A DNA stretch of 51,059 nucleotides, the filler included, from Catajapyx aquilonaris (lineage: Eukaryota), in the NCBI GenBank assembly GCA_000934665.2. It is 2 parts of 2 records of this genome, joined end to end, with 100 filler letters (N's around TTAATTAATTAA, not from the genome) between each part and the next. Parts side by side here need not be neighbours in the genome. Positions count along the whole stretch, not along the records: positions 1 to 25,480 come from JYFJ02005359.1; 1 more part is not named here. The stretch is one strand, 5' to 3'. Shown here piece by piece: positions 978-49,630 of the stretch (within the stretch, counting starts at the first letter, position 1; each line of letters opens with the position of its first letter). Below the pieces are notes generated by a model. It searched no databases. It worked only from the letters and a program-made list of their open reading frames with translations, and was not told the origin of the DNA. A program made the position numbers and the translations under genes.

Positions 978-1870
978 TCACATGTCAAGCATTTTGGCCA
1001 ATCCAGGGCATCTCTGAAACAAAATTGAAACAAAACGTTCAGAATTTTGCGTTATAATTATCTTTCTCATCATGAGCTATACGTGCCACCCACCTCTGTA
1101 ACCACTTTTCTAAAGCATTTCGCCAATTTTGTTAATCCCGTGCAGTTTGGCATCGTTCTGTTTACTTTCACTCCTGGAATATTTGAAAGGCAAGGGATTA
1201 CTCGCCGTATGCGTGCGTGTTTAACATTGTCGCAATAATTGGGCCAAATCCACGTGTCAGCCTGAACGGTGTCGGACATAAATATGATCACCTTTTCCAC
1301 CTTTTCCCTCTTTGGCGCATTTTTTCCACAATTCCCTGAAAGCTTCTTGCATGCCCCCTTCAGGTAGAGATACGATCATTTCCTCCGCCTTCTGCACCTG
1401 GAACTCTCCTTCCTTGGTCAACTATATAGTCACAGAATCGGAGAGGTGACTCAATCGTTCCAATAAGATCACACTCCATAAAATCCATTGTGCCACTTAC
1501 CACTTCCAGTCTTGAGAGCATGCAGTCTGCCAGGCACTGCAATGGGGGAATATCCTATATGTTAAGAGGGATCAACATTTGCTTGGCGCGTTCACATTAG
1601 CGTTAGAATATTAGCATCAAGGAAGAGTAAGAAGTGTTCCTGGTAATTACCAGCCTGTCCTGGCCAAACTCCTTCAGGCAGTCGAGCATGACTTTCATCG
1701 CTGGGTAGTTCTGAGGAGGAGACTCGCAGTCGCCATGGACCAGGCCCACCTGCTTTTAGAGTAGGAAATACACCATAAGTGCAGCTGAAGGTGTCTCCAA
1801 CCATACTATTACTTACCAGCAAGAAAGCGGCCAGGAGCAATAAGGACGAGAGCACTCTAGGAGCAGTCAT
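978..1870 (-). CDS. Obp: OBP-like secreted protein, copy 1 (141 aa, 6 exons, intact)
   Basis: Exons 1870-1817, 1749-1651, 1536-1501, 1421-1301, 1173-1094, 1013-978, all GT-AG. Protein MTAPRVLSSLLLLAAFLL/VGLVHGDCESPPQNYPAMKVMLDCLKEFGQDRL/CLADCMLSRLEV/LTKEGEFQVQKAEEMIVSLPEGGMQEAFRELWKKCAKEGK/GVKVNRTMPNCTGLTKLAKCFRKVVTE/RCPGLAKMLDM*. Signal peptide plus the C-X3-C and C-X8-C hallmarks of insect OBPs. Confidence 0.88.
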
Positions 1871-3144
1871 CCTAATGGAGTAGTCATCCTAATGGAGTCG
1901 GTCCAATGGGACTGTTTGCACAACATCCCAAGGGCGACTTTTATTACATGTCATAAAAGTTAGGCCGATTGACGTACTGCTTCCCTGCAGGATGTCACTT
2001 GCCTTAGAACTAGAATTCTCACTCTCTGTGGGCTCAATAGGAGAGGTGCACACTCAAGTGTCACATTACCGCCATTAGATTTATGTGGCTTCCAACACTG
2101 CCTGGGTTTCAATGAATTGGAATGTGTTAAAGAGCATTGCCGCCATATATATATTCTGCCGAGGGTTACGTGAGCACTGTCATTGTCCTGAGGGTGTTGC
2201 CCGATCAGAGTGATAACATTGGTGATGATGGACGTCGCACTTGGACGACACGAACGTGGCTCAGGAGGGGCAAGTTGAATAGGCGAGAAAATGTTTTTAA
2301 TGTGACGAAAGTCGGTGTTTCACCACGCCATCTTTGTTTCAGAAACTTGGGGGGTGTATTTGGCAATGGCTCGTTTCTCTCAATATAATTATAGTCTCCT
2401 CCGTGCTGCTCTGTAATCAATAGGTAATATTAGGAAGCATTCATTTCACGACATATTCAGACCACAATGGCAAATTTTGCACAATGGCACAATTTGTGGA
2501 GACATAAAAAAGTAATATTTCGAGAGCGACCAATATTCCGTCGGGGTGATGTATAGTGAATCTACAGTATAGCGCAAGGTACTATGATAGTAGTAGTATG
2601 TAGTATGATTGAAGTATAGTGCGTAGATATGTAAATGTAGTCAACGTAGCTAGGTCCGCATGACGCTGTAATGCTGTTAATTATATTTACTGCTTACAGC
2701 CATGCATGCATACGATTGATTAGAAAAATTGCTTAGCCACCTAAAGACGAACTGTTTTCGCCATTTGGCAAAAAGTAAGTGACAATTTACGAGGATCAAT
2801 ACATTGAGAAATGTTGCCGGATTGCATCTTTCGTCCCAGTTTTTGCAAATGGGCACTCCCTCTATTACGTGAAATGATTTAGCGGGATTCCTTCATTAAT
2901 TTAAATTGCGAACCTGCAATATATTATTGTCATTTGCTTACAAGCAGGAGGTTTTCCCCATTGGGCACATACACTTTCCATAAAGGCATACCCAAATAAA
3001 ACCGAGTGAAGACTATAGTTTGACCAGACAGTATATTATAAACAGGTACTTGTGCTTTAACTAGTAAGTGCATGTACAATCTTTGTTGTTGGATGAGACA
3101 AAGAGAAACGCTGTCAAAGATTCCCCGGTGTTTTGAGTCGCAGT

Positions 3145-3969
3145 TCACATGTCGAGCATTTTGGCGAATCCGGGGCATCTCTGAAACAAATATTGAAACA
3201 AATATTCAGCACTTTGTGTTTCATCCCTCTTGCCGTGCCACCCACCTCTGTAATCACTTTTCGAAAGCATTTTGCCATTTTCGTTAATCCCGAGCAGTTT
3301 GGCAGCGTTCTATTTACTTTCACGTCTGGAATAATATTGAAAAGCAAACGATTATTACTCCCCGGATGCGTAGGGCCAACAACACTGTCAGCATGAACAG
3401 TGTCTCACATTTTAAACAAATCCGCACCTTTTCCTCCTTTGGCGCATTTTCTCCACACTTCCCAGAAGGCTTCTTTCATGTCCCCGTCTGGTAGCGAATC
3501 TAGCATTTCCTCCGCCTTCTCCACTTGGAGGTCTCCTCCTTCGTTCATCTAGTCACAGAATCAAAGGTTGCAATAAGGTCGCACTAAATACATTGTTACA
3601 TATTGTACAACTTACCACTCCCAGTTTTCGAAACAAGCAGTCTCCCAGGCACTGCAAGGTGGAATTTAATATCCCGTGTTAGAGGCATCAGCAGTATTTA
3701 TTTTTTTAATTACGAAAGAGTGAGTGAGTGTTACCAGCCTGTCCTGGCCAAACTCCTTCATGCACTCCAACATGGCTTGCGTCGCTGGATGGTTCTGAGG
3801 AGGAGCCTCGCACTCGCCATGGACCAACCCCACATGCTTTTAAAGGTAGGAAGAAGAAGAAGAAGAAGTCCATCAGCTGAAGATAGTGTCACGTGTCTCC
3901 AATCAGATAAATTACCAGCAAGAAAGCGGCCAGGAGCAATAAGGACGAGATGACTATAGGAGCAGACAT
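3145..3969 (-). CDS. Obp: OBP-like secreted protein, copy 2 (reading frame intact; intron-1 acceptor mutated CAG>CAT)
   Basis: Exons 3969-3916, 3833-3735, 3651-3616, 3548-3428, 3325-3246, 3180-3145. MSAPIVISSLLLLAAFLL/VGLVHGECEAPPQNHPATQAMLECMKEFGQDRL/CLGDCLFRKLGV/MNEGGDLQVEKAEEMLDSLPDGDMKEAFWEVWRKCAKGGK/DVKVNRTLPNCSGLTKMAKCFRKVITE/RCPGFAKMLDM*. The canonical acceptor is lost at 3834; an in-frame AAG lies 3 nt upstream. Confidence 0.75.
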
Positions 3970-4437
3970 CCTAATGGAGTCGGTCTAACTACGGACGGTT
4001 TGCGCATCACAACTCCAACCTTTATTACAGGGAGGCAGGATGTCACTCTTGCACAACTAGAATATTATTCTCACGTGCTGCAGGCTCAATTGGGGAGGTG
4101 TCATTCAAAGTACTGTGTCACCTTATCAGCAGAAGATATAATATGTTGGCTTCCTTAACTGCTTGGTTTTCAGCCATTGACATTGCGGTGTGTATATGCC
4201 GGATCATTATTTACGCAATATCCTGTCTGGCGTTTTGTGAGAGCCCTTTTCATTCGGTATTGCCCGAGATAGATAGAATTGGTGTCGATGGACGTCACAC
4301 CAGGGCGACAGGCACGATGGGCCGGCCAAATAGCAGGAAGATAATATTTTACATACCGTACGTGAGAAAAGTCAGTATATGTCCCCAATATGGACAGTTC
4401 CTGTCGGCTGGTATTACAAGTTAGTGTGAACATTATA

Positions 4438-4999
4438 CAGGGTGTTTATTGTAATTCTGCAAAGACTTTCAGGGGTAATAGAGGGGACCAAGACAAGCAT
4501 TTTCGACATAGGAACCCGTGTCCGGAAACGCCCTCTAGAGGGGGTTCATAGACAAGGAACGGGTGCGCTCAGACGCTTCATGCGGGAGGCGCTAGGCGAG
4601 CGGACTGTTTTGTTGATAGATGGTGCTCGGATAGTAAACATCGATGCGATGTGCCATAACCTGGCAACAGCAGAGCCATCTAGCAACTAAAGTACGCCTC
4701 CTAGGAGATGTGTGGATAGCCAACAGCGGATTTGTTGTTGCCAGGTTATGGCGTATCGCGTTGTTGTAAGCAAACAACGATGTGATACGCAATAACCTGG
4801 CAACAACTGCAATCTATCTATCAACAAAACAGTCCGCTCACCGAGCACCTCCCGCGTGACGCGTCTGAGCGCACCCGTTCCTTGCCTATGAACCCCCTCT
4901 AGATGGCGTTTCCGGACACGGGTTCCTATGTCAAAATTTTTTGTCTTGGTCTCCTCTATTACCCCTGAAAGTCTTTGCAGAGTTACAATAAACACCCTG
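4438..4999. mobile_element. Tc1/mariner-type MITE with long TIRs (CAGGGTG...CACCCTG) and TA target duplication
   Basis: About 180-bp inverted arms (4438-4620 vs 4818-4999) flanked by TA. The paralogous upstream regions at ~8910-8945 and ~10990-11020 show the empty site. A second copy lies at 37081-37494. Confidence 0.85.
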
Positions 5000-5831
5000 T
5001 ATAATGGATTAATGGCGCATGTGCGTCACTAGAATGGATATCGCTTTCATAGAATGATATTGAAGCCTGAATAGTGTCCCACGATTAGACGTAAGAGACA
5101 CCACGAGGAATAAAAAGAAGTCTCCTGACAGCTCTCAGGTGTAAATATATTCTTCACGTATACACGTCTGCTCTCTTCTACAGACACTCAACGACTCCTT
5201 ACAAAGTATTTTCAGGGGTATTTTCGGGTAATTTTTGTACTCCAGTACGTACCCGTCCCCGGTACATACCGTCCGCTGTATACATGCGTACCCGGTATGA
5301 ACCCGTCCCTGGTACGCACCCGCCAACCTTACATATAATCTTCCCCTGTGAATATTATTCCTTATTCATCTTTGCATGGCTGCCATCTTTGAAATCTTTC
5401 CGCTCCCTGATTGGCCTCCCTGGTGCATCCCGAGGTTGCCAAATCTCTTCCTAACACACTGCGCAGGCGCCGACAAGCCCCTCCCACCGGCATGGGTCTT
5501 TAACTAGCTGCTTATTACAAGAAGTGGATATCAGTTAGTAGTAAGCTAGCAGGCGCTTATCAGCTGCTAAGTAGCAGTGCTGATAAGTCACTGCTAAGGG
5601 AAAATACGAAAATTCGACCCAAAGACTCTCCAAAAAAGGACTCCCCAATAAAGCCGAGAACATACTAGTTTGACGACAGTATACTAATTTGCGTGGGTGA
5701 TCATTTTAATGCATTCTGGGCAGGTACAGTGCTTTTTCTAGCGAGTGAATGTACAGTACGTAGACGCAGTGTTGTTGAACGAGAAAAAAATGAAACGCTG
5801 TCAAAGATTCCTGAATATTTTGAGTCGCAAT

Positions 5832-6698
5832 TCACATGTCAAGCATTTTGGCCAATCCAGGGCATCTCTGAAACAAAATTGAAACAAAACGTTCAGAATT
5901 TTGCGTTATAATTATCTCTCTCATCATTAGCTATACGTGCCACCCACCTCTGTAACCACTTTTCTAAAGCATTTCGCCATTTTCGCTAATCCCGCGCAGT
6001 TTGGCAACGATCTGTTTACTTTCAATCCTGCAATAGTGGAAATGCCAATGATTATTACTCGCCGTATATAGGTTCAACACTGTCCCAACTGAATGGAATC
6101 CACGTGTCATCTTTAACCATCGTCACCTTTTCCTCCTTTGGCGCATTTTCTCCACACTTCCCAGAAGGCTTCTTTCAGATCCCCATCCGGTAGAGATGCT
6201 AGCAATTCCTCCGCCCTCTCCACTTGGACGTCTCCTCCTTCGCTCACCTAAGTCACAGAATCAAAGGTAATGGTTTCAACAAGTTCACACTAAAACTGTT
6301 ACATATTGTGGAACTTACCACCCCCAGTCTTACGAACATGCAGTCTCCCGTACACTGCGAGATGGAAACATTCAGTGTTTTAGAGACATCGACATTATTG
6401 AACCCACATTTTCAGATTCGTGCCTGCCTGCTTTTTAAATAATAAGAAGGAGTGAGTAAGTGTTCCTTGTTACCAGCCTGTCCTGTCCGAACTCCTTCAT
6501 GCACTCCAACATGGTAATCATAGCTGGGTGGTTCTGAGGAGGAGCCTCGCACTCGCCATGGACCAAACCCACCTATTTTTAAAAGGCGGATGAGGAGGAG
6601 GAGAAGAAGTGTCCCTTGCCTCCAACTAGATTAATTATAATTACCAGCAAGAAAGCGGCCAGGAGCAATAAAAACGAGATGGCTCTAGGAGCAGACAT
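5832..6698 (-). CDS. Obp: OBP-like secreted protein, copy 3 (141 aa, 6 exons, intact)
   Basis: Exons 6698-6645, 6572-6474, 6354-6319, 6247-6127, 6027-5948, 5867-5832, all GT-AG. MSAPRAISFLLLLAAFLL/VGLVHGECEAPPQNHPAMITMLECMKEFGQDRL/CTGDCMFVRLGV/VSEGGDVQVERAEELLASLPDGDLKEAFWEVWRKCAKGGK/GLKVNRSLPNCAGLAKMAKCFRKVVTE/RCPGLAKMLDM*. Confidence 0.88.
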
Positions 6699-7697
6699 CC
6701 TAACTGGTTAGTTCCGAACTGGACTGTTTGCATCACAATCCCAAGGGCGACTTTTATTGCAGGGAAGCAGGATGTCACTTGCGAAACTACGGTTTCGCAT
6801 ACGTTGCAGGCTCAATTGGGAAGGTTTCATGTAAACTGCAGTGTCACATTATCAGCACACATAATAAGATTTATGTGGGGCTTCCTACACTGCTTGGCTG
6901 GTATTATTATAAGTCTGAACATTACATAATGGCACATGTGCGTTACTAGAATGCATATCGCTTCCATATCATGTCCCACGATTAGACGTAAGAGACACCA
7001 CGAAGAATATAATAAGTCTCCGGACGGCTCTCAGATGGAAATTATATATTCTTCTCAACAGGTTGACTCGTCTGCTTTCTTCGACAGACACTCAGCGACT
7101 CCTTCCTTACATTGCATTTTCAAGGGTGGAGCATCCACCAAATATTTCGGGTAATTTTTGTACAGTCATGCAAGATTTATAAAAACACGAGGGGTGTTCA
7201 AAAAAGGACCGAACATTTTAAATAGCTCGTCAATCGGCACAAATAAAAATTGCTTATAGCCACATAGAGACGAACTGTTTCCGCCATTTGGCAGATGCTT
7301 TTCTTGACCGAAAGTAAGTGACCTGTAAGCGACAATTTACGAGAATCAATACACTGAGAAATGTTGAATTCTTTATTCATCATTCTCTCTTCCAATTCTT
7401 TTGCAAATGGGCACTCCTTCTACATGAAATGATTTAACGGGATTATTAATTTCAATTGTGAACCTGCAATTATTGTCAGTTTCTTATAATCAGGAGGGTT
7501 TTTCCCCATTGGGCACAGACACTTTCCATAAAGGCACACCCAAATAACACCGAGTAAAAACTATAGTTTGACCTTTGACCGGACAGTATTATGAACAGGT
7601 ACTTGTGCTTTATCTAGTAAGTGCATGTACAACCATTGTTGTTGGATGAGACAAAGAGAAACGCTGTCAAATATTCCCCGGTGTTTTGAGTCGCAGT

Positions 7698-8469
7698 TCA
7701 CATGTCGAGCATTTTGGCCAATCCAGGGCATCTCAGCAACAAAATTGGAACAAATATTCAGCACTTTGTGTTTCATCCCTCTTACCATGCCACCCACTTC
7801 TGTAATCAATTTTCGAAAGCATTTTGCCATTTTCGTTAATCCCGCGCAGTTTGGCAGCGTTCTATTTACTTTCACGTCTGGAATAATATTGAAAAGCACA
7901 CGATTATTACTCGCCGGATGCGTAGGGTCAACACTGTCAGTATTTAACACATTAAAAAAAATCCGCACATTTTCCTCCTTTGGCGCATTTTCTCCACACT
8001 TCCCAGAAGGCTTCTTTCATGTCCCCGTCTGGTAGAGATGCTAGCAATTCCTCCGCCTTCTCCACTTGGAGGTCTCCTCCCTCGGTCAACAGGAATCAAT
8101 AAAGGTCACTCAAAGGTTGCAACAAGATGGCATTAAATTGTTACATATTGTGCAACTTACCACTCCCAGTTTTCGAAACAAGCAGTCTCCCATGCACTGC
8201 AAGGTGGAAATATTCCGTGTTAGAGGCATCAGCAGGATTGGTTAAATTAAGAAAAAGTGAGTAAGTATTCCTTGTTACCAGCCTGTCCTGGCCAAACTCC
8301 TTCATGCACTCCAACATGGCTTGCGTCGCTGGGTGGTTCTGAGGAGGAGACTCGCACTCGCCATGGACCAGGCCCCACCTGTTTTTAGGAAAAAGAAGCT
8401 CAAGTGTCACTTGGCTCCAGCAAGAAAGTAGCCAGAAGCAAGGACGAGATCAGGATTAGTGGCAGTCAT
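7698..8469 (-). pseudogene. Obp: OBP-like copy 4, pseudogene (paralog of copy 2)
   Basis: All six exons are recognisable, but there is a frameshift in exon 1, the intron-1 donor is deleted, exon 2 starts with an extra G (8373-8376), the exon-4 acceptor is lost (CTG|TTG near 8090) and the exon-6 acceptor is mutated AG>TG (7734-7735). Confidence 0.85.
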
Positions 8470-9889
8470 CCTAATTGAGTCGGCTCAACTATAGGAACTG
8501 TTTGTGCATCACAACTGCAACCTTTATTGCAGAGAAGCAGGATGTCACTTGCATAACTAGAATATTATTCTCACGTGCTGCAGGCTGGGAAGGTGTCATT
8601 CAAACTTCAGTGTCACCTTTATATCAGCAGAAGATATATATGTGGCTTTAACTGCTTGGTTTTCAGCGATTGACGTTGGGGTTTGTATAAGAGCATTATT
8701 TTACGCAATATCCTGTCTGGCGTTTTGTGAGAGCCCTTTTCATTGGGTGTTGCCCGAGACAGATAGGACATTGGTGTCGATGGACATCGCACTTGGGCGA
8801 CACGCACGATGAGCCAGCCAAAGAGCTTGAAGAGAATATTTTACATCGAGCAGAGTCAATATGTCACCACTATGGAGACAAAGGAACCAGTTCCTGTGGG
8901 CTGGTATTATAAGTCTGAACATTATATAACGGCACATGTGCGTCACTAGAATCCACATCGCTTCCATAGAATGATGTTGGACCACCCTGTATATGGCGCA
9001 GCGAGTTCCAGTCCAGAGACTGATTCCATTGCAGCGCCAATGTGGAAAGAGATAACGGCACTCTAGATGGAGGCGAGTGTCCCGACCTATTCTTTGTAAG
9101 GAACAGCGTCCAGAAGGTGTAAAGTAATTTTGAGAATCTCCCACAGGTTTCAAGTTGACCGCACTATTTATTTCCACTTTGACACCAATAATCACATTCG
9201 TAAGTAAGTGATGGATAAGACGATGCAACGGAAACGGTGCATAGGATAATCCAGGGATGTAAGGAAAGTGGACTAAATTTGCTGAAGGACGACTGGTACT
9301 TTCGGCTGTAAGAAGACTGGTGGATGCTGAAGGACAATATAGGTACTATTGGGCTGGTACAACGGATGACCCGGAAACGGCTCGTACTGGGTCACTTTGC
9401 ATGTTGGTCGCCATCTGTGAAATCTTTCCGCTCCCTGATTGGCCTCCCTGGTGCATCCCGAGGTTGCCAAATCACTTCCTAACACACTGCGCAGACGCCG
9501 ACGAGCCCCTCCCACCGGCATGGGTCTTTCACTGCTTCTTACAAGAAGTGGATTTCAGTACGACGAGAATTCCATTTTTAGTAGTAAGCTAGCAGGCGCT
9601 TATCAGCTGCTAAGAAGTAGCAGTGCTGATAGGTCACTGGACTCACTGCTAAGGAAAAAAGACAAAAATTCGACCCAAAGACTCCAAAAACGACTCCCCA
9701 ATAAAACTGAGAACATACCGTTAGTTTGACGACAATATAATAATTTGCGTGGGTGATAATTTTAATGAATTATGAGCAGGTACAGTGCTTTTTCTAGCGA
9801 GTGAATGTACAATTGTACATACACGCGGTGTTGTTGAACGAGACAAAAAGAAACGCTGTCAAAGATCCTGTAATGTTTTAAGTCGCAAT

Positions 9890-10778
9890 TCACATGTCAA
9901 GCATTTTGGCCAATCCAGGGCATCTCTGAAACAAAATTGAAACAAAATGTTCAGAATTTTGCATTACAATTATCTCTCTCATCATGAGCTATACGTGCCA
10001 CCCACCTCTGTAATAACCTTTCGAAAGCATTTTGCCATTTTCGTTAATCCCGCGCAGTTTGGCAGCGATCTGTTTACTTTCACTCCTGCAATAGTGGAAA
10101 TGATCATTACTCCCCATATAGGTTCAACACTGTCCCAACTGAATGGAATCCACGTGTCAGCTTTAAACATCATCACCCAAGTCATCACCATTTCCTCCTT
10201 TGGCGCATTTTCTCCACACTTCCCAGAAGGCTTCTTTCAGATCCCCATCTGGTAGAGATCCTATCATTTCCTCTGCCCTCTCCACTTGGAAGTCTCCTCC
10301 TTCGGTCAACTAGTCACAGAATCAAAGGCCACTTAATGCAGACTTAATGGTTTCAACAAGTTCACACTAAAACTGGTACATATTGTGCAACTTACCACTC
10401 CCAGTTTCCGAAACAAGCAGTCTCCCAGACACTGCGAGATGGAAACATTCATTGCTTTATAGAGACATCGACATTATTGAACCCACATTTTCAGATTCGT
10501 GCCTGTTTTTTAAAATGATCAAAGAAAGAGTGAGTAAGTGTTCCTTGTTACCAGCCTGTCCTGTCCGAACTCCTTCATGCACTCCAACATGGTAATCATA
10601 GCTGGGTGGTTCTGAGGAGGAGCCTCGCACTCGCCATGGACCAAGCCCACCTGTTTTTAAAAGGCGGAGGAGGAGGAGGAGGAGAAGTGCCCCTTGCCTC
10701 CAACTAGATTAATATCATAATTACCAGTAAGAAAGAGGCCAGGAGCAATAAGGAAGAGATGACCCTAGGAGCAGACAT
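9890..10778 (-). CDS. Obp: OBP-like secreted protein, copy 5 (141 aa, 6 exons, intact)
   Basis: Exons 10778-10725, 10650-10552, 10431-10396, 10309-10189, 10085-10006, 9925-9890, all GT-AG. MSAPRVISSLLLLASFLL/VGLVHGECEAPPQNHPAMITMLECMKEFGQDRL/CLGDCLFRKLGV/LTEGGDFQVERAEEMIGSLPDGDLKEAFWEVWRKCAKGGN/GVKVNRSLPNCAGLTKMAKCFRKVITE/RCPGLAKMLDM*. Confidence 0.88.
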
Positions 10779-11275: not shown

Positions 11276-11720
11276 ACAAAGGGTGTTCAAAAAAGGCAAG
11301 AACTTTTTAAATAGCACGTCAATCGGCACAAATAAAAGAGCGTGTTGTGCCTACTGACAGCACCTAGCGACATGTCTTGACAACTAATGCCATTTGCCAC
11401 GTTCAGATATGACCATTGGTCATCGAGATACACCCACGTCGAATTAGTGAGAAAGTGAAAAATAATGAGAGAGCTTGAAAAACATCGACTTTGTGTGATA
11501 TTTCGCTTTAAAAATGGTACAAATTTTACAGAAACATTTCAATTGCTTTGCCAAGCATACTTACGAAGGGTCTCTCCTCGACTAAAAGAGGCACAGATCA
11601 ATCGGTCAAAGGTCAAGGTGATGTTGGTTGTGTATTTGGATTGGAAATGCATTTTTCGTTATGAATTTGAACCATGTTGTCAGATTGGCAGACAAACGGT
11701 GTTGTACTGTGCCAGAATGC
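11276..11720 (+). mobile_element. Internally deleted mariner transposon remnant
   Basis: TIR-like start (GGGTGTTCAAAAAAGG..AACTTTTTAAATAGC; also at 7187-7248). ORF 11465-11776 fuses a mariner N-terminal HTH (ELEKHRLCVIFRFKNGTNFTETFQLLCQAY) directly to the SPRxKxA..RSKVKVMLVVYLDWK..YEF segment of mariner transposases. Confidence 0.8.
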
Positions 11721-11984
11721 GGCTGAACGGCACAGATTTCCTCGTCGTCCCATCATTCAGAATGAAAAGGATGTAAGTCCCGTGCCTTTAAATCGCTCAC
11801 GCGCATCTGTAATGACGTTTTTTCCACCGAACTGTGCTCAACATGATGGCAAAGGAGACTAAGATCAACATTTCCGCGAGTCCGACCACCTTGACGAATT
11901 CACAACGCCGCATTTCAGTTTTTTGCCTCTCCTGTAAAATGTGGTCTCATGGACTTATGACCATTCCATTTTTGGTGATTCAAA

Positions 11985-15379: not shown

Positions 15380-17867
15380 TAGTCCAGGCAGATTTGGTCA
15401 AAAAATCAGTTTCGCTCATATTGCGTGTTAATTTTGATCTGTTTGTGGGAAGTTGTTAAGCATAATGAGAAGTTTCAAAATCGACTTGTCGCCATTTCCC
15501 ATCCGCCATATTACGGCCGCCATCTTGGAAAAATGGCGGAAAAAACAGATTTTTCTGTTTTATCTTTTTAACCGTTCATTTTCTGAAAAATAATTAGACA
15601 TTAAACATGACGGGAATTATATACCACATCGAAGAGTACTCTATCAGAATTATGATAACTGTAACCGTTCAGCCAGAATCGAGCGGACAATGTCCATTAC
15701 TACCTTCGCCTGGATTAGCGCGGGAAGAATTGTTCAAAAATTCCGTGCCGCTGTAATTTTAATGATAATTTTGATCTGTTTGGGGGAAGTTGTTAAGGAC
15801 AATAAGAAGTTGCGAAATCAACTTGTCGCCATGATTTTAGCTACCTATTACAACCGCCATCTTGGAAAAATGGCTGCAAAAAGAGCTATTTTTGCTTCAT
15901 TTTTTGAACAGTTAATATTATGAAAAGACGACTAAAACAAAAGTTAAAGAGCATGAGATTTACAATAAATATGTACTTATCAATGTTTTGATAAGTGCAA
16001 CTGTTCAGCTGAAATTCATGATTAAGATTTCTCCTATCACAGGATTTCTAGTAGAACATAAGAAACATATTTTAAAATGTTGTAATACATATTTAAAGTT
16101 ATAAATTGCTTTCTAGTGCTGACTATTATAGGCAACTTATCAACAGAACTACTTGGTTGTGTGCTGGTCACACACTTTAATTATTTTTAAAATGTCAATA
16201 TACACTCGTAAATGGACCTGATATTTATTCCGCCAGGCAATGATTCTTGTGTTACAAACTTGTTTCCAGTTTTTCTTCCTCAAACATCGATGTAAGAAAT
16301 TCAGTTTTATTATCGAGTAATCATTTTTGTTGATAATAGTTTACAAGAAATAGGATACATAGACTACTGTACTGTACAGTATACTTGTTCTAATCTGTGT
16401 TCAGGAGTCCTCATTGTCAATGTCTACACCTGGGTTTCTCCTGCGAAAAACTGCAGCGAAGCTGTATCTAGAACAACAACATTTTCACTGAACTTGCTGG
16501 TGTTCTGATCATTACTCTGTTAATCATCAGAAACCCAGTGCCGATTGCAAATACGGAAGATGAGGACTTCTGTATGCAGGATAGAACTACTGTATAGCCT
16601 ACTATACAGTATATATATTATCTTTTATCTGTTATAAAGTGTACACTGTTATGATTATAATAAAACTGACAATGAGTTTCTTACATCGATGTTTGAGGAA
16701 GAAATACTGGACACAAGTTAAAGTTTTGTAACACAAGAATTATTGCCTGGCGCAATAAATATCAGGTCCATTTACGAGTGTATATTGATATTTTTTTATT
16801 ATTAAAGTGTGTGACCCACAAACAACCAAGTTGTTCTGTTAACTTTTGAGATCAATTTTGATAAGTTTCCTAATAGTCATCAGAAAGCAATTTATAACTT
16901 GGAATATGTATTACACCATTTTAAAATATGTTTCTTACCCTCTACTACAGTGGTTTCCAACCGGGGGGGCGTGAGAGGATTTCAGGGGGCGTGAGGCCAT
17001 GAGAAATAAGTAAAGTAACATAACATGCTGGCTCTTCTGTCGTTTCCTCTATTTCGACATGTTTTCATTCCTCAGTTATAAAAATATCTTTCAAGAAACT
17101 CTTGCTGGAATTTATTGGGACCGGGGGTGGTGGGGCGTGAGTGTTTGGTGAAAACGAAAAGGGGGGCTTCAATGACGAAAAGGTTGGGAACCACTGCTCT
17201 ATATACTAGAAATCCTGTGATAGGAAAAATGTTAATCATGAATTTCAGCTGAACAGTTGCACTTATCAAAACATTGATAAGTACATATTTATTGTAAATC
17301 TCATGCTCTTTAACTTTTGTTTTAGTCGTCTTTTCATAATATTAACTGTTCAAAAAATGAAGCAAAAATAGCTCTTTTTGCCGCCATTTTTCCAAGACGG
17401 CGGTTGTAATAGGTAGCTAAAATCATGGCGACAAGTTGATTTTGCAACTTCTTATTGTCCTTAACAACTTCCCACAAACAGATCAAAATTATCATTAAAA
17501 TTACAGCGGCACGGAATTTTTGAACAATTCTTCCCGCGCTAATCCAGGCGAAGGTAGTAATGGACATTGTCCGCTCGATTCTGGCTGAACGGTTACAGTT
17601 ATCCTAATTCTGATAGAGTACTCTTCGATGTGGTATATAATTCCCGTCATGTTTAATGTCTAATTATTTTTCAGAAAATGAACGGTTAAAAAGATAAAAC
17701 AGAAAAACCTGTTTTTGCCGCCATTTTTCCAAGATGGCGGCCGTAATATGGCGGATGGGAAATGGCGACAAGTCGATTTTGAAACTTCTCATTATGCTTA
17801 ACAACTTCCCACAAACAGATCAAAATTAACACGCAATATGAGCGAAAATACAAATCTGCCTGGACTA
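15380..17867. mobile_element. 2.5-kb foldback non-autonomous DNA transposon with ~1-kb inverted arms (Academ-like termini)
   Basis: Termini TAGTCCAGGCAGATTTG...CAAATCTGCCTGGACTA, flanked by TTT on both sides (3-bp TSD). Outer arms (15380-16050 vs 17205-17867) are near identical; inner arms (16050-16430 vs 16540-16945) are more diverged. The superfamily is inferred from termini and TSD length only. Confidence 0.8.
16948..17196. mobile_element. hAT (Charlie/Buster-like) MITE nested in the right arm of the foldback element
   Basis: TIRs CAGTGGTTTCCAACC...GGTTGGGAACCACTG; absent from the left arm at ~16050; degenerate 8-bp TSD (CTCTACTA / CTCTATAT). Confidence 0.8.
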
Positions 17868-18479
17868 TTTGCTCCCTGGCAAGTTTTTTTTAAATATTCG
17901 ACCCCTGGTAGTACATATTCCCAGAGTGTTTTGTTGTGCCCGAATATGTTTCAACTTTTGTTCTCTTTGTCCAGCCCTTTTGTATAACACTGTCCTTCCT
18001 ATTACCAGCATTTCAGTAGCACTTTATTGAACACAGTGCCATTTATTGGACTCTGTCATAATAGTTGTGATTTTTGTCTCTCTCGATTGAAGATCTGGCA
18101 TTCATGTCGATAAAAAAAAGATCGATTAGAATACTGAAGGGAATTCGAGATATAAAGCAGTTTCAGGATATTGCTTTATCTTCCATCGTCATTTTTGCAT
18201 GCTTATCCACAAGAGACTAATTCCCATCAGAAGAGGCCAATGACAATCTGATAAGTGCAAAAGTATTACGAGTCTAGTTTGAAGGGCAGGTTATCCCTTA
18301 TTACGCGAATAAATGTTTGTTTGCACTAAATTGACGCGATGACCAAAGAGTAATAATTGATTCCTTTCGCACTCGCCCCAAAACAGAAAGGACAGCAACA
18401 ATACCGTATATTCAGACATCATCACCGTAAACACGCACATACACAAAATAATGACGGCATGCGATGGAGTTATTGTTGC

Positions 18480-18930
18480 ATGGTAGCAAAGTGCGCATGT
18501 GATAGTTTTATGGCCCACAAAATAGGGGCAGAATTGTGTGCACTGGACCATTGCGTAACTGTGGATTCGCACTCCCTTCAGGCTCAATTGGGAATAAGGT
18601 GTCATGCAAACTTCAGCGCCGCATTATCACCGTAAGATTTATGTGGCTTCTCACACTATTAAACTGCATTGCCGCGCAATATCCTTTGGAGCGTCTTGAT
18701 TGTATGTGATCACCATTTTCCTACCAGGGTGTTGCCCGATTAGAGTGATAACATTGGTGGTGACGGGTGTCGCACGTGGCCGACACGCACGTGGCTCAGG
18801 ATGGGCAAGTGACGAGCGAAATAGTTTTCAATGTTACGCAAGTCAGCATTTCACCACACCATCATTGTTTCGAAAACTTTGGCAAAAGTGTCTTTGGCAA
18901 TGGCTCGTTGCCCTCAATCCGATCAGCCAT
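18480..18930 (-). promoter_or_regulatory. Orphan chimeric OBP upstream region with no gene body
   Basis: 18487-18570 aligns by eye to the copy-7 proximal upstream region (21160-21242); 18578-18915 aligns to the distal upstream region of copies 1-6 (e.g. 2030-2385). Confidence 0.65.
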
Positions 18931-19229
18931 GGCCCAGCGATTCTCAATAATATACTTCAATGCACTGCACTGTCGCGTGGTGTAAAATGCACACGCAGCG
19001 CCATGGCATGGATGATTTTATAATTATATATTTTATATAACTGAAGAGTCGTGTCTTTGCTTCATAACATGACCGTTTACCTCTCCGTCCTACACGCCAT
19101 ACCATAAACATGGGATAATTTTAAGGAAGCGCCTATAAATAAATAAATCTTGCGAGTATACAGTAGTTTGTGGTCGATGGCCACAGAAAGGTGATGTGGA
19201 AAGCGACTATGTAACTTCTGTCTTCTGCC

Positions 19230-19323
19230 AAAAGAAAAATCTAGATGACCTGAAGTGTCCCCTTACTTTTATTACATGTAATAAAAGTAAGGGGACACTT
19301 CAGGTCATCTAGATTTTTCTTTT
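19230..19323. repeat. Perfect 94-bp spacerless palindrome
   Basis: Two 47-bp arms are exact reverse complements, centred at ATTACA|TGTAAT (19276/19277). Confidence 0.95.
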
Positions 19324-19324
19324 C

Positions 19325-19720
19325 AGAGCAGCAGAATGTCACTTCGAAATATGATTTTCAATCTCTGCAGGCTCTTTGGGGGGAAATGTTATGCAAACTG
19401 CAGTGCAACGTTATTTCTATCACATGATATGTGGCTTCCTAAACGGCTTGGTGTTCAGCGATTGGGAATTGGGATTGCATAATTTACGTAATATATCCTT
19501 TTTAGCGTCGTGTGAGCGCCTTTTTCCTGGGGTGTTACCCGATTAGATAACATTGGTGATGACGGACGGGTGCTTCACTTTGCAAACACGCACCTGGATC
19601 AGTATGTTGAGAGTGGCCCAGCCAAATAGATGAATGGCATATTTTGAATGTGATGATAGTTGAAAGAATGTTGCCGCTATGGACAACAGGAGATCAGTTC
19701 CTGTGGGCTGGTATATTCGT
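19325..19720 (-). promoter_or_regulatory. Second orphan copy of the upstream region of OBP copies 1-6
   Basis: Contains GCAGAATGTCACTT, GCAGGCTC, AAACTGCAGTG, ATGTGGCTTCCT, GGGGTGTTACCCGATTAGATAACATTGGTG and CAGTTCCTGTGGGCTGGTAT in the same order as 14530-14800 and 8540-8910. Confidence 0.7.
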
Positions 19721-20297
19721 GGTCTGCAACCTTGCTACACGGATAATGGGCTTCGAAAAAAGGTGTGAATATGATATCCTGGCAAATGTGCGTCACATCC
19801 AAGCGATATTGCATCTTCCATTCAAAATACTCTCTTTGCGTCATATACGGACGCCGCCGCGGTTATGCAATGCACTTTTCCAGAAATGCTAATGGCCTCG
19901 GGAATGAGGGCAGAAAGTTATCCTTTGAAAACCACGGGTTCACCCTGAGGACGTTATTATTTATCTCAGTCATTATGGAACAAAATCATTGTGACGCCTT
20001 GTAAAATTGTGTCTGTACCTTATTATTTTTTAAGATTAATGATCTGACTAGCCGTTCTGAACGGGTATGCGGAAGTCATTTCATTATCATATATTTTTGT
20101 TCTTTTGTCAACCACTCTCGTGATCATTTTTGCAATTAATTTTTCAATGTGTTAAATAATGAAATTCGGGTTGCAACTCGGTTGAGAGTGATCATTTTTA
20201 TTATCATCATTGCATGGTACACATTCTTCACAGTACATTAAGTGAGTAGCAAGCGAGCATTGTTGACATCCGGTAGAAGAATCTCCCGTTGGTGACT

Positions 20298-21132
20298 TCA
20301 CAGTTCAAGCAGCTTGACTAGTGCTGGGCATTTCTGGAAAGGAACGTGAAAATATTGTCGAGTGGTTCGCATAATTATTTCGATCGCCATCAGCAGCATG
20401 AAGGGTGTTTCTTACATCTGTCATCACTTTCTTAAAGCATCTGCCCAACGTTTTCCAGCCCATGCAGTTGGGCAATTTCCGGTCGATCGGATGCCCTGAG
20501 GACAGGAAAGAATGTTGTGCTACCTTCGCATCACTTGAACACTATGTATGCTATACAACGGAGGAGATGCCAACCCACCGTCCCCGTCTTTGCAGCATTT
20601 CTTCCAGAATTCGCGGAATGCCTCTTTCAAGTCTCCGGGAGAAAACGAGTCGATCACCTTGACCACCTCCTCTTTTTGGTACTTCCCTTCCTCACTCAAC
20701 TAACCTCAGGCCAATCAATAAGGCGCGTTAATTACAAGCGCAATGTAACAAGCCATAAGCATATAGTGATGAAGCTTACCAGATTCAGCCGCATGCCTAT
20801 GCAGTCTGCCAGACACTACAATAATAAAGTGTTGATGATTTCACACATTAGCGTGTTCCTTTCAACATGATGTGGTAATCTTATAGTAAGGTCCTTACCA
20901 GCTTATCCTTGCCGAATTCTTTGGCGCATTCCACGGCTGCCTTCATGCCTGGGTTGTCCTGAGAAGGAGCGTCGCACTCACCATGGACCAGCACCTGCAT
21001 GGTGATGATGACAACACAAAAGCACAGTCGTTAACAGTGACGGTGAAGAAGAGGCCATGTCCTGGAAATTGAGCCGTAACTAACCATTAAAGAGGCCATC
21101 AGCATGACCAGGACAAATGCTGAGCAGGTCAT
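20298..21132 (-). CDS. Obp: OBP-like secreted protein, copy 7 (divergent, 138 aa, intact)
   Basis: Exons 21132-21085, 20994-20899, 20815-20780, 20699-20579, 20495-20416, 20333-20298, GT-AG with the same phases. MTCSAFVLVMLMASLM/VLVHGECDAPSQDNPGMKAAVECAKEFGKDKL/CLADCIGMRLNL/LSEEGKYQKEEVVKVIDSFSPGDLKEAFREFWKKCCKDGD/GHPIDRKLPNCMGWKTLGRCFKKVMTD/KCPALVKLLEL*. Confidence 0.88.
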
Positions 21133-22060
21133 AGTGAAGCCAGCACGATTGCTCGACTCAAAGTGTGCAAATGATAGTTAGCCCATAAAGTAGGGGTGGA
21201 ATAAATATGTGCACTGAGCCATTACGTAACTCAGGAGTCGCGTTTTTTTTTTAGCTAAGTCTCTTCCTTTCTAAAACCGCGAACAATGCAGCTGGCAACA
21301 ATATGGGCCATGATTTACGAGCGCCAAGACTTCCATCTAACGCAGAATTGTTTGGCCACACGACATCCGCTGTAAGTGTTACGTGTGCCTGGGGGATTTA
21401 TACAGGCAGCGCGTTAATTATTACGTATTTTTGAGACATGCAAGTGGCAGTGGCGACAGGCGTTTGAAATGATTCCGAGTTATGTAAGCCGCGTTTTGAA
21501 TGAGGTGGAGATGTGTTATTGCCACCTTCCCTTGATGCGGATATCCTGATGGTCGCCTATCATGCGGGCCATCGAACTTGGTCTCAAAATGGCTATATAC
21601 AACGAGTGAACCCGTTGCGAAAATTTGGCAAAACCTGTAATCAGTATGGCAGTGATAATAACACTATGCAGAAAAGTAGGACATGGTGACCAACATCTGC
21701 TGCTCACAATATTAGCATGTCGTACACCTCTGTGGCTGTTTTCTTCAAACTGAAGTTGAAAGCCGCAACACTGAATATTGGCCCACTGCCACTGCTCATT
21801 CCACTCCTTACAATAAGCCTATTAGGAGAAAGATGTCAAAAAAAAATAAGAGTCCCGACTCTGTTATCAATCATAGCTCCAAAATACCGTACAAAACGTT
21901 TTTGGCACATACATACGTAGCATACTAACATGGATTACAACTTGGTACTTTTTGCAAGGGATTCATTATTTTTATCGTATACATTCATTTGGACAGTATG
22001 TGTTTGTGCATGTGTGATGTCGGGAGGGCGGGTCATCTGTCCTCTATAAGTTTGTAGTTC

Positions 22061-23364
22061 TCACATGTCGAGCATCCGGGCCAGTTCAGGGCACATCTGA
22101 AACAGTCAAAATTATTATTGCTTTCAGATTGAAGACGTATCTGACCTCTTGAGTTGTCACACCTGAGTCACGACTTTTCGGAAGCATTTTGCCATCTTGG
22201 TCCATCCCGTGCAGTCAGGCATCTTCCGGTTGATTGGAGGAACTATAAAGTCAGAGAAAATGGAATTGATGCACCCATTATGGAAACACCCCAACTCCAT
22301 CTCTCTGGGGCATGGAGTTGGGGTGGACGCGCCTTGCTATCCTTGTGAGGACTTTTGTCATTACGAGGTAGTTTTTCTGCACCTCATAGTGAACACACGC
22401 CTCACAAGGATAGGGAAAAATCGAAAAATACATCATGAAGACAGTAAAAATATATTTCACCAAAATTTAGGGTGTTTCCTTGTAGGTTAGGTTAGTTTTA
22501 AAATTTGGAAAAACCTCACAAGGATAGCAATGCGCGCCTGTGTGTTTCCATAATGGGTGCTTCAATTGAAATGAGGCCAAATCGAAACAACGTTCGTTGC
22601 TGGTTCCAATTGGCACCCTTTGAGCGCCGTATGTCCAAACACTGACTTTTTCCAGACTTGGCGCACTTCCTCCAGTATTCCAAGAAGGCCTCTTGCAGAC
22701 CGCCTTCCGGAAGAGTCTCGATCATTTGTTCCATCTTTTCAGCTACGTACGCTCCTTTCTCGGTCACCTACAATGGCATAATCAGACTGGTCGAGGAAAA
22801 AATAACCACACACCCTATACAGTTGTCACGTAGACACATGTGCATGCCGAGTGTGTCACTCCGATTCCACGGTGGCCAAGAGTTGAGCCTCTGAACGTCT
22901 AAATCGTAATGAACCACCCTGTGTGCCTTGCTCTGTTCATTATGAGTACAGCTTATGCTGCACTGAGAAATTAATTGGATTCAACTTACTATTCCCAATC
23001 GCTGGCCGAGGCAGTCTGCCACGCACTATACACAGGGCGAGGAGCATAATTAAGTGCGTGATCATTACTGACGCCACATAATTATGTATGTACACTATAG
23101 TTAGACTCTTTGTACACAAACTGTTCTTACCAGCCTCGCTGTTCCAAACTCCTTGGCGCAATCCATGGCTACCTGCATAGCCTTGTTTTGCTGATCAGGA
23201 GCTTCACAAGTTGCGTGGACGAGACTCATCTGTCCATATGTAAGATGAGGCATACCAGTGTCAAACAATAAAAGAAGCCATTCTCGCAAAGAAGAGGTGG
23301 TGCCAATTGTTACCATGCAAGAGGCCAAGAGTGACACGAACAAGACAGAGTGGACGGTGGTCAT
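22061..23364 (-). CDS. Obp: OBP-like secreted protein, copy 8 (divergent, 140 aa, intact)
   Basis: Exons 23364-23314, 23229-23131, 23025-22990, 22767-22647, 22242-22163, 22096-22061. MTTVHSVLFVSLLASCM/MSLVHATCEAPDQQNKAMQVAMDCAKEFGTARL/CVADCLGQRLGI/VTEKGAYVAEKMEQMIETLPEGGLQEAFLEYWRKCAKSGK/IPPINRKMPDCTGWTKMAKCFRKVVTQ/MCPELARMLDM*. Confidence 0.88.
22264..22567. mobile_element. MITE in intron 4 of OBP copy 8
   Basis: Inverted termini AATTGATGCACCCATTATGGAAACAC / GTGTTTCCATAATGGGTGCTTCAATT, with inner IR TTGCTATCCTTGTGAGG / CCTCACAAGGATAGCAA. It explains why this intron is ~400 nt rather than ~70-130 nt. Confidence 0.75.
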
Positions 23365-24024
23365 CTTGGAGCCACCTCTGTTGCACATGGACGAAGGAGT
23401 ACAGTCCGTGGCCTGCGGTTCGGATGATCTTATCATTGCTGCACTGGGATCCCACGCCCTTTTCAAAGTGCGAACAATTGAGAATTCCTAGAATAGGAAC
23501 ATTCTGACGCAGGCTATTGTTACGCAAGATCACAGGACGCACAGATCATCCTCAAGCAATGCGTGCCGAATTCACCTTTTTCATCCCAGGCTGGTGACAG
23601 CGACTTATCGGTGACATTTACACAATAAGGCGATACACGCGACACGCAGCTCGATTTGAATGTAATCACTTCATAATGATATTTATTTATAGGCTGTATT
23701 GCCGCCAAGCACGCACCTTTCTCGCTTCAGTTGGAAATTTCAGCATCGGATGTTGCTTCAGATGGGTTTGTTTTAATGCATCACCATTGTCATTACACAT
23801 CAGTCATGTTATCTAAGAGAGCAACCGTGTGGGTTATGCCATTGTTCAGAGTGTCCCAGAATAATACTGCATTGGGACGTATATTGTTCAAATAAAAATC
23901 AGGACACGATGATTGTGTATGTAACGTTTTTATTTCGACAGCGTTCCTTTTGGTGTGCGGAATAAGTGCAGTGCGGTGACAGTACATCTGCTTACAACAC
24001 ATTATTAGGCCCCTATGCTCTTCT

Positions 24025-24952
24025 TTAAGGTTGGAGCAAAGACATCAAATTGGGACATTTCTGCAAAGAGAAGTATTTTTATACAAGTCCTTGCAACGTT
24101 AGATTGTTCTCATTGACAACTGTCACAATAATAAAAGATTGAAGCACAACTATACTGGTGGTCAACAGTAAACAAACCTCTTCCATGACCTTCCTGGCAC
24201 ACTTTGCGATCTTCATGAATCCGGCACAGTTGGGCACGGTCCTGTCGATCGGAGGGGCTGAAGAAGACAACAGCAATATTATTTACTGGGCATTGTTGCG
24301 CATGCAGCATGTGGCCAACTCACCATCGCCAGCTTTGGCGCATTTGTTCCAGATCTCGTACATGGCAGTCTTCAACTCACTATCGGGAAGTAGGTCAAGC
24401 AGTTCCACTACCTTCTTCGGGTTGTACTCGCCCTTCTCGTTTATCTAAATGTGAACAACGTGGCTTCAAAATATTTTTTGGCCATTTTTCCATCATTATG
24501 TTATGGCAAGTAATTAACTTAAAATATAAAAATAAATGACGCAAATTTGCAAATAAAATGGAGCTTACCATTCCCAGCTTGATTCCTATGCAGTCTGCGA
24601 CGCACTAATTGTCGGAACACGAATTTATTATTGGGTGCAGATGTTTCGCAATGTTTCAACTTGGATGGTGACACTTACCAGTCTGTCATTTTGATGGCCC
24701 AAGGAGCACTCGAGGCCTGCCTTCACCACTGGGTGGTCCCCAGGTATACCCTCAGTGGTGCAAACACCTCTCACTACCACCTGAAACAACAACAGTAAAA
24801 ATTAGCAAGTGCTCATCCTCAGCTGCAATGTGCAATAAGGTTCCTTAATTGAACCTGACTGCATGTTGCACCTCTGAGTAGATCATACGCACCAAGAGGT
24901 TTGTGCAGAGCACCAGACAGAGAAGCCAGGACATGGCGCTTGTCTGCTGCAT
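24025..24952 (-). CDS. Obp: OBP-like secreted protein, copy 9 (most divergent, ~144 aa, intact)
   Basis: Exons 24952-24893, 24780-24679, 24604-24569, 24444-24324, 24257-24178, 24060-24025. MQQTSAMSWLLCLVLCTNLL/VVVRGVCTTEGIPGDHPVVKAGLECSLGHQNDRL/CVADCIGIKLGM/INEKGEYNPKKVVELLDLLPDSELKTAMYEIWNKCAKAGD/APPIDRTVPNCAGFMKIAKCARKVMEE/KCPNLMSLLQP*. Confidence 0.87.
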
Positions 24953-25480: not shown

Positions 25481-25580
25481 NNNNNNNNNNNNNNNNNNNN
25501 NNNNNNNNNNNNNNNNNNNNNNNNTTAATTAATTAANNNNNNNNNNNNNNNNNNNNNNNNNNNNNNNNNNNNNNNNNNNN
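25481..25580. other. Artificial assembly linker: 44 N + TTAATTAATTAA + 44 N
   Basis: Exactly 100 nt, symmetric, with a six-frame stop palindrome at 25525-25536. Confidence 0.92.
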
Positions 25581-27921: not shown

Positions 27922-27931
27922 AACAAAATCG

Positions 27932-49600: not shown

Positions 49601-49630
49601 AGGGGCCTTACCAAGGCCTATCAGTATACA

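What the first reader, a model, noticed from the sequence alone, without database searches (positions are those of the whole stretch)
978..24952. Nine-gene tandem array of an atypical 8-cysteine OBP-like secreted protein family, hidden from the ORF track by splicing
Seen: nine minus-strand genes share six exons with identical intron phases (0,0,0,1,0) and fixed exon 3-6 sizes (36, 121, 80, 36 nt). Each intact copy encodes a signal peptide plus C-X15-C-X9-C-X3-C-X41-C-X15-C-X8-C-X8-CP (first spacer X17 in copy 9). Known: C-X3-C and C-X8-C define insect OBPs, and a C-terminal CP marks Plus-C OBPs. Unusual: the X9 spacer before C-X3-C is much shorter than in Classic OBPs, C4-C5 is long, and the mature protein (~117 aa) is short for Plus-C. 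Inference: a lineage-specific compact Plus-C-like subfamily in which the first and last cysteines form a fourth disulfide that clamps the termini. It could be a non-olfactory carrier (saliva, gland, haemolymph or seminal fluid) rather than antennal.
Basis: partly seen in the sequence, partly recalled or inferred. Interest (0 to 1): 0.85.

Follow-up and report, generated by a model that had tools for sequence, protein, structure and literature searches.

The report
Eight-cysteine OBP-like tandem gene array
A row of nine small spliced genes (seven intact) encodes secreted carrier-type proteins whose cysteine pattern combines the frame of centipede and mite odorant-binding-like proteins with a cysteine pair typical of insect odorant-binding proteins, an unusual variant of a known family that may show how the insect form arose.

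Summary
The array is real. Nine minus-strand six-exon genes lie at 978-24952. Seven are intact, g6 has one frameshift, g4 is decayed. The intact copies have GT-AG introns, phases 0,0,0,1,0 and cysteine spacing 15-9-3-41-15-8-8-CP, as stated; all 28 pairwise dN/dS values are below 1.

"Compact Plus-C" fits only partly: four of the twelve Plus-C cysteines are absent. The short front part and the terminal clamp have precedents. Varroa OBP1 (solved) lacks helix 2 and bridges its first and last cysteines. Several centipede OBP-like proteins have a similar short interval and CP tail. Neither has C-X3-C.

Best reading: a secreted five-helix OBP-superfamily carrier with four disulfides, namely the non-insect frame plus the insect C2-C5 bridge. 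This rests on spacing counted by eye, weak Pfam hits (E 0.05-0.11) and single-exon models. The whole-protein fold, the splicing and the tissue were not tested. No close relative was found. Nothing supports a non-olfactory role in particular.

This scan already noted several similar clusters elsewhere in this genome (unchecked notes). Verdict: new variant of a known kind.

The parts
978..1870 (-). g1, intact; exons 1870-1817, 1749-1651, 1536-1501, 1421-1301, 1173-1094, 1013-978; 141 aa
3145..3969 (-). g2, intact if the acceptor 3 nt upstream of the usual exon-2 start is used; exons 3969-3916, 3836-3735, 3651-3616, 3548-3428, 3325-3246, 3180-3145; 142 aa
5832..6698 (-). g3, intact; exons 6698-6645, 6572-6474, 6354-6319, 6247-6127, 6027-5948, 5867-5832; 141 aa
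7698..8469 (-). g4, pseudogene closest to g2: indels in exon 1, first donor deleted, indel at the start of exon 2, acceptors of exons 4 and 6 lost
9890..10778 (-). g5, intact; exons 10778-10725, 10650-10552, 10431-10396, 10309-10189, 10085-10006, 9925-9890; 141 aa
13586..14461 (-). g6, one 1-nt insertion in exon 1, exons 2-6 open with intact splice sites: young pseudogene or assembly error
18487..18918 (-). upstream-region relic (similar to the 5' flanks of g1-g6 and g7) with no alignable coding exons behind it
19230..19714 (-). second upstream-region relic, ending in a perfect 94-nt palindrome (19230-19323); no coding exons
20298..21132 (-). g7, intact, with an extra Cys beside C4; exons 21132-21085, 20994-20899, 20815-20780, 20699-20579, 20495-20416, 20333-20298; 138 aa
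22061..23364 (-). g8, intact; exons 23364-23314, 23229-23131, 23025-22990, 22767-22647, 22242-22163, 22096-22061; 140 aa
24025..24952 (-). g9, intact, most divergent (36-44% aa identity to the others); exons 24952-24893, 24780-24679, 24604-24569, 24444-24324, 24257-24178, 24060-24025; 144 aa

Best explanation
A birth-and-death tandem array of secreted, roughly 13-kDa carriers of the arthropod OBP superfamily. SHOWN: gene structure, hydrophobic leader, no long hydrophobic segment in the mature chain, invariant 8-Cys frame, purifying selection. INFERRED fold: extended N-terminus, helix 1, a five-residue turn where classic OBPs have helix 2, then helices 3-6 and a short amphipathic tail. INFERRED bridges: C1-C3 and C4-C6 (shared by all OBPs), C2-C5 (the insect bridge), and first Cys to last Cys-Pro (the clamp solved in Varroa OBP1). 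INFERRED function: binds small hydrophobic molecules in a cavity left more open by the missing helix 2, and ferries or buffers them in extracellular fluid. Chemosensory lymph is my first guess (about 55-60% given the fold), another secretion or haemolymph the second.
For: C2-X3-C3 and C5-X8-C6 are exactly the classic spacings (PMC8961588 passage); C3-X41-C4 lies within the classic 35-47. Exon 4 of g1 and g9 hits PF01395 at profile positions 58-93 of 113, the expected place (E 0.05 and 0.11; 2 of 8 copies), and g7 hits the Sol_i_2 family (E 0.076; that it has an OBP fold is recalled). AlphaFold on exon 2 gives coil 1-15 and helix 16-28 with C1 at 24, so five residues remain before C2 (pLDDT 73); exon 4 gives two helices (pLDDT 80). 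Helices 4, 5 and 6 are amphipathic in 7 of 7 intact copies (moment 0.43-0.67 at 100 degrees). Dropping C2 and C5 leaves spacing 15,13,41,24,8. Compare Varroa OBP1 19,26,42,20,8 (residue numbers), Varroa OBP3 15,17,36,14,8 and centipede SmarOBPl3_11 16,15,42,14,8, 3_15 19,13,43,16,8, 3_13 16,11,45,20,8 (each of these three has one extra Cys; all counted by eye). SmarOBPl3_7 and 3_10 end in C-X8-CP plus a short tail, like exon 6. dN/dS is below 1 in 28 of 28 pairs.
Against: No whole-protein HMM or structure test was run, only single exons. The Pfam hits are far below the gathering score (13-14 bits vs 22), 6 of 8 exon-4 copies do not hit PF01395, and an unrelated family (PAH_ZNF598, E 0.0035) scores better for g9. 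Exons 2 and 5 hit no Pfam family (0 of 8 tested). Exon profiles did not retrieve Varroa OBP1 or any OBP from PDB sequences at E up to 10. C4-C6 (24) is longer than in the non-insect examples (10-20). Helix 3 is only weakly amphipathic (0.16-0.39). The likeness to centipede and mite proteins is by eye, with no score, and could be convergent. No expression data.
Confidence: 0.7

Rival explanations
1. A derived insect-type Plus-C OBP that secondarily lost four outer cysteines, helix 2 and most of its C-terminal extension. The likeness to centipede and mite proteins would then be convergence, or would reflect only the shared root of Plus-C.
For: C6-X8-C6a followed by Pro, and a Cys upstream of C1, are Plus-C marks. 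Plus-C clades expand in tandem, e.g. a 61-gene cockroach array (PMC6175461 section 3.4). Some chelicerate OBP-like proteins fall near Plus-C in trees (PMC5952958). Some authors define Plus-C simply as having extra cysteines.
Against: Three spacings fall outside the Plus-C pattern, C5-C6 is 8 not 9, and 4 of 12 cysteines are absent. Similar short C1-C3 intervals and short CP tails occur in centipede proteins without any such loss being needed.
Confidence: 0.15
2. Six-helix classic-like OBP: an exon coding for helix 2 was missed, or helix 1 is split so that the usual fold is kept.
For: Gene models rest on DNA only (no RNA run listed). OBP genes often have many short exons (7-9 in cockroach).
Against: Intron 2 is only 74-120 nt and the shortest intron in the array is 65 nt, so there is no room for an exon plus two introns. 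Intron 2 is poorly conserved between older copies (51-65% in 11 of 15 pairs). The exon-2 model shows one helix only.
Confidence: 0.04
3. A secreted disulfide-rich helical protein unrelated to OBPs (glue, gland, immune or cuticle protein) whose cysteine spacing resembles OBPs by chance or convergence.
For: No significant hit in Pfam, PDB sequences, the 5.8-billion and 1.84-billion protein sets or the ESM Atlas with single exons.
Against: Five spacings, the CP, the leader on its own phase-0 exon (as in insect OBP genes), the size and the position of the weak PF01395 hits all agree with OBPs. Queries of 26-42 aa have little power.
Confidence: 0.11

Closest known systems
Myriapod OBP-like proteins of Strigamia maritima (21 sequences, supplement of PMC5952958), e.g. 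SmarOBPl3_11, 3_13, 3_15, 3_7, 2_5
   Same: Leader; first Cys within a few residues of the mature N-terminus; first spacer 16-19 in the compact members; short C1-C3 interval (11-18; ours 13); C3-C4 41-45; C6-X8-C7; CP plus short tail in 3_7 and 3_10; lineage-specific expansion (counted by eye).
   Different: 0 of 21 show C-X3-C or the C5 partner. Several carry an additional N-terminal Cys pair or other extra Cys. C4-C6 is shorter (10-20 vs 24). No scored similarity was computed.
Chelicerate OBPs, type VdesOBP1 (PDB 7NYJ/7NZA; PMC8222343) and TurtOBP1-4 (PMC8269058)
   Same: Six of our eight cysteines map on its six. Solved bridge between first and last Cys that joins the termini. Helix 2 absent, five helices.
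   Different: Six Cys only, no C2-C5 bridge. C1-C3 interval 17-26 (a loop) vs 13. Only 4-5 genes per mite genome. Exon profiles did not retrieve it by sequence.
Insect Plus-C OBPs (pattern in PMC5054612 Table 2; AgamOBP48 described there second-hand)
   Same: All six core cysteines, a Cys before C1, C6-X8-C6a-Pro, C3-C4 of 41 vs 43.
   Different: 12 Cys vs 8; C1-C2 21-48 vs 9; C4-C5 20-33 vs 15; C5-C6 9 vs 8; 178-259 aa vs 138-144.
Classic insect OBPs (Pfam PF01395 PBP_GOBP)
   Same: C2-X3-C3, C5-X8-C6, C3-C4 and C4-C5 within range (35-47, 8-18); leader on a phase-0 first exon; size; tandem clusters.
   Different: Two extra Cys. C1-C2 is 9 vs 24-37, so no room for helix 2. Only sub-threshold Pfam hits on single exons.

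Membership tests
Arthropod OBP superfamily (incl. OBP-like) | Signal peptide; small soluble secreted protein | tested here: met
   21-25 aa leader with 9-residue hydropathy 2.5-3.3; mature 117-119 aa, maximum 19-residue hydropathy 0.94; no dedicated predictor run
Arthropod OBP superfamily (incl. OBP-like) | All-helical OBP fold with internal cavity | tested here: inconclusive
   Only exons 2 and 4 were modelled: helices where expected; fold searches with the 40-aa hairpin were uninformative
Arthropod OBP superfamily (incl. OBP-like) | Binds small hydrophobic ligands | not testable with these tools
   needs recombinant protein
Classic insect OBP (PF01395) | C2-X3-C3 and C5-X8-C6 | tested here: met
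   7 of 7 intact copies; definition
Classic insect OBP (PF01395) | Six Cys only; C1-C2 about 24-37 residues (helix 2 present) | tested here: not met
   8 Cys (9 in g7); C1-C2 = 9
Classic insect OBP (PF01395) | Pfam gathering score 22 bits | tested here: inconclusive
   single exons only: 14.1 and 13 bits in 2 of 8 exon-4 copies
Plus-C OBP | Cys-Pro eight residues after C6, and Cys upstream of C1 | tested here: met
   7 of 7 intact copies; pattern
Plus-C OBP | 12 Cys (C1a, C1b, C1c, C6a, C6b, C6c), adjacent CC before C1, extended C-terminus | tested here: not met
   only two extra Cys; 9 residues after the last Cys
Plus-C OBP | C5-X9-C6; C4-C5 20-33; C1-C2 21-48 | tested here: not met
   8, 15 and 9
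Plus-C OBP | Nests in the Plus-C clade | not tested
   no OBP reference sequence was returned by any search, so only a within-array tree was built
Chelicerate/myriapod OBP-like | N-terminal Cys and a Cys eight residues after C6 (terminal clamp); short or helix-free C1-C3 interval | tested here: met
   positions met by spacing 15,13,41,24,8 against (counted by eye); the bridge itself is not shown
Chelicerate/myriapod OBP-like | Lack of C2 and C5 (Minus-C-like) | tested here: not met
   C2 and C5 are present in all copies; their absence in OBP-like proteins is stated in PMC5381604 and PMC8222343
Chelicerate/myriapod OBP-like | Disulfide pairing first-last, C1-C3, C4-C6 | not testable with these tools
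   needs mass spectrometry or a whole-protein model

The most novel reading that the evidence does not exclude
The family is a surviving structural intermediate in OBP evolution: the five-helix, terminally clamped frame of myriapod and chelicerate OBP-like proteins that has gained the insect C2-C5 bridge but not helix 2. Classic OBPs (clamp lost, helix 2 gained) and Plus-C OBPs (clamp kept, more Cys added) could both derive from such a form. If the unchecked scan notes are right that the host is a non-insect hexapod with many such clusters, some among ionotropic- and gustatory-receptor genes, this is a large, overlooked carrier repertoire serving those receptors.
Probability: 0.3. Interest if true: 0.7.

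Novelty: new variant of a known kind. Interest (0 to 1): 0.45.

Why it matters
How insect OBPs relate to the OBP-like proteins of mites, spiders and centipedes is open. PMC8269058 suggests a common precursor and says no such ancestor was found in databases. PMC5952958 finds the two families not reciprocally monophyletic. A protein carrying both the mite-type clamp and the insect C2-C5 pair in 117 residues makes that question testable with one structure and one tree. It also shows how such families escape annotation: 36-nt exons and sub-threshold Pfam scores. Tandem OBP arrays with pseudogenes are ordinary in themselves.

Tried and rejected
No whole genome is held for this window. No RNA holder was listed; this is no evidence on expression.

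A missed helix-2 exon was rejected on intron length. Extra copies beyond the nine: none found by splice-bounded patterns or tblastn in the rest of the window. A short GECE motif behind the relic near 18,480 did not extend to an alignment above the shuffled maximum. Rfam: 0 matches. Pfam on 101 other long frames: 2 sub-threshold hits, nothing that names the host.

Literature: ten searches listed no paper describing this 8-Cys spacing. The library lacks most subscription papers, including the bristletail/firebrat OBP paper (Missbach 2015) and Renthal 2017 (both seen only as reference entries) and the AgamOBP48 structure paper (not held). The cockroach OBP sequences were not reached because the supplement was cut. 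So 'not in print' is not established.
Full report
Observation. A self-comparison shows repeated blocks only in the first 25 kb. Scoring the six exon peptides of copy 1 along both strands found nine minus-strand sites for each of exons 2-6; for exon 4 they score 84-208 against 25 for the next site and 17 on the plus strand. Splice-bounded patterns for exons 3 and 5 occur 9 times each against 0.035 and 0.015 in 200 shuffles. Seven copies (g1, g2, g3, g5, g7, g8, g9) give open 138-144 aa proteins with 35 of 35 GT-AG introns, phases 0,0,0,1,0 and exons 3-6 of 36/121/80/36 nt. The spacing is 15-9-3-41-15-8-8 followed by Pro (17 first in g9). Additions: g2 needs an acceptor 3 nt upstream; g7 has an extra Cys beside C4; g6 has a single 1-nt insertion in exon 1; g4 has lost a donor and two acceptors and has indels. 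Two upstream-region relics without coding exons lie at about 18.5-18.9 and 19.2-19.7 kb. No further copy was found.

Evolution. Identities among the 7 intact proteins are 36-88%. Nei-Gojobori dN/dS over the collinear core of 8 copies (g9 left out because of its indel; g4 and g6 included) is below 1 in 28 of 28 pairs: 0.14-0.34 for the 13 pairs with g7 or g8, and 0.26-0.74 for the 15 pairs among g1-g6. g1-g6 are a young expansion; the tree of 8 proteins has no fully supported branch (94/95 for the young clade). Intron 5 of g1 is 98% and 95% identical to those of g3 and g5, while its introns 2 and 4 are 53-63% identical to those of the other copies, which suggests a local conversion tract. This is ordinary birth-and-death evolution of coding genes.

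Protein anatomy. Each protein has a 21-25 aa hydrophobic leader, a mature chain of 117-119 aa (about 13 kDa, pI 5.9-8.2) with no long hydrophobic segment, and the first Cys at mature position 2 (cleavage placed by motif). AlphaFold could be run on single exons only. Exon 2 is extended for 15 residues and helical at 16-28, with C1 at 24, leaving five residues before C2. Exon 4 is two helices. Helices 4-6 are amphipathic in all 7 copies; helix 3 only weakly. Intron 2 (74-120 nt) is too short to hide an exon. So the place of helix 2 is empty (inference).

Database tests. Exon 4 hits PF01395 below threshold, at the expected profile position, in 2 of 8 copies (E 0.05, 0.11); an unrelated family scores better for g9; exons 2 and 5 hit nothing. 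No relative came from the large protein sets, the Atlas, metagenome contigs or PDB sequences. Fold searches with a 40-aa hairpin were uninformative. No genome or RNA run was available. OBP membership therefore rests on pattern, not on a significant score, and the whole-protein fold, the junctions and the tissue remain open.

Comparison with known forms. Classic OBPs have C2-X3-C3, C5-X8-C6 and bridges C1-C3, C2-C5, C4-C6 (PMC8961588, passages), with C1-C2 of 24-37 (PMC5054612, passages with Table 2). Plus-C has 12 Cys, C1-C2 21-48, C4-C5 20-33, C5-X9-C6 and Pro after C6a; the array meets only the Cys-Pro and one upstream Cys. Varroa OBP1 has five helices, lacks helix 2, has a wide open cavity, and its six Cys (21, 41, 68, 111, 132, 141) pair first-last, second-third and fourth-fifth (PMC8222343; parts 1-4 of 6 and supplement part 1 of 2 read). 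Spider-mite OBPs pair the same way (PMC8269058, passages). Removing C2 and C5 from our pattern leaves 15,13,41,24,8, which maps on those six positions. The 21 centipede OBP-like sequences in the supplement of PMC5952958 (passages and supplement passages) are closer still in the front part. Counted by eye: SmarOBPl3_11 16,15,42,14,8; 3_15 19,13,43,16,8; 3_13 16,11,45,20,8 (each with one extra Cys); 3_7 and 3_10 end in C-X8-CP plus a short tail. None of the 21 shows C-X3-C, in line with the description of OBP-like proteins as lacking C2 and C5 (PMC5381604, passages). What I did not find described is their combination with the insect C2-C5 pair in an eight-Cys protein.

Mechanism. Most likely each copy is secreted, folds into a five-helix OBP-type bundle with four bridges (C1-C3, C4-C6, C2-C5, first-last), and binds small hydrophobic molecules in a cavity that the missing helix 2 leaves more open; the short amphipathic tail may partly cover it. 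Paralogues would differ in ligand preference. All of this beyond secretion is inference. For site of action the window is silent. Unchecked scan notes report similar genes interleaved with ionotropic- and gustatory-receptor genes elsewhere in this genome (e1-7708544, e1-7834529), which leans towards a chemosensory role. OBPs and OBP-like proteins are also expressed widely outside sensilla. I put sensory lymph at 55-60% given the fold. Varroa OBPs bound test ligands only weakly, so binding is not guaranteed.

Host and context. Nothing in the window names the host. Scan notes describe the genome as a non-insect, springtail-like hexapod (e1-7507221, e1-7832837) and list at least seven other 8-Cys OBP-like clusters, one of 28 loci; I tested none of these. 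OBPs are known from springtails in small numbers (PMC4145409, passages and supplement rows). A dipluran genome paper has no 'OBP' in its main text (PMC6938034, passages). OBPs are reported absent from crustaceans, with remipedes unexamined (PMC5850775, passages). Large OBP expansions are known in cockroach (109; PMC6175461, passages and section 3.4) and mayfly (191; PMC7250882, passages). PMC3595023 and PMC3134979 were seen as passages. Ten searches listed no description of this spacing, but key papers and supplements on wingless-insect, cockroach and mayfly OBP sequences were not seen, so a described clade with this pattern is not excluded.

Verdict. It is best filed as a new variant of a known kind: it works like an OBP, fails the strict tests for Classic and Plus-C, and fails the OBP-like definition only by having the extra pair. 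Interest 0.45. The array itself is ordinary and recurs across this genome, but the cysteine frame bears on an open question about the origin of insect OBPs and can be tested cheaply. The intermediate-form reading has about 0.3 probability and would merit 0.7.

Noticed in passing
window 15380-17867: Fold-back element: 644-nt arms 99% complementary around an inner inverted region (16049-16947); sits between g6 and the relics.
   Followed up: no
window 4431-5006 and 37081-37509: MITE-like inverted-repeat element between g2 and g3, with a related copy (89-92%) at 37 kb.
   Followed up: no
window 11459-11773 (+): Sub-threshold Pfam hit to the Mos1 transposase HTH (E 0.0011): probably a mariner relic between g5 and g6.
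   Followed up: no
window 19230-19323: Perfect 94-nt palindrome with no loop, at the point where an upstream-region relic would enter its 5' UTR.
   Followed up: partly
window 1014-1093 vs 5868-5947 and 9926-10005: Intron 5 of g1 is 98% and 95% identical to those of g3 and g5 while its other introns are far more diverged: likely gene conversion.
   Followed up: partly
window 34049-34845: 400-nt direct duplication (98.5%) split by a single N: probably an assembly artefact.
   Followed up: no
window 42403-43150, 45094-46027, 46200-46622, 27525-27987, 38550-38823: Further decayed inverted-repeat elements in the gene-poor right half.
   Followed up: no
window 49554-51018 (+): GC-rich end with frames of 124-327 aa that look like retrotransposon gag/pol remains (recalled resemblance; no Pfam hit above threshold).
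   Followed up: no
window 25481-25580: Assembly gap of Ns with a short palindromic stop-codon spacer in the middle, 530 nt upstream of g9; the array may continue in sequence not joined here.
   Followed up: no
exon 5 of g1, g2, g3, g5: N-glycosylation sequon (N-R-S/T) in the loop before C5 in four young copies, absent in g7-g9.
   Followed up: no
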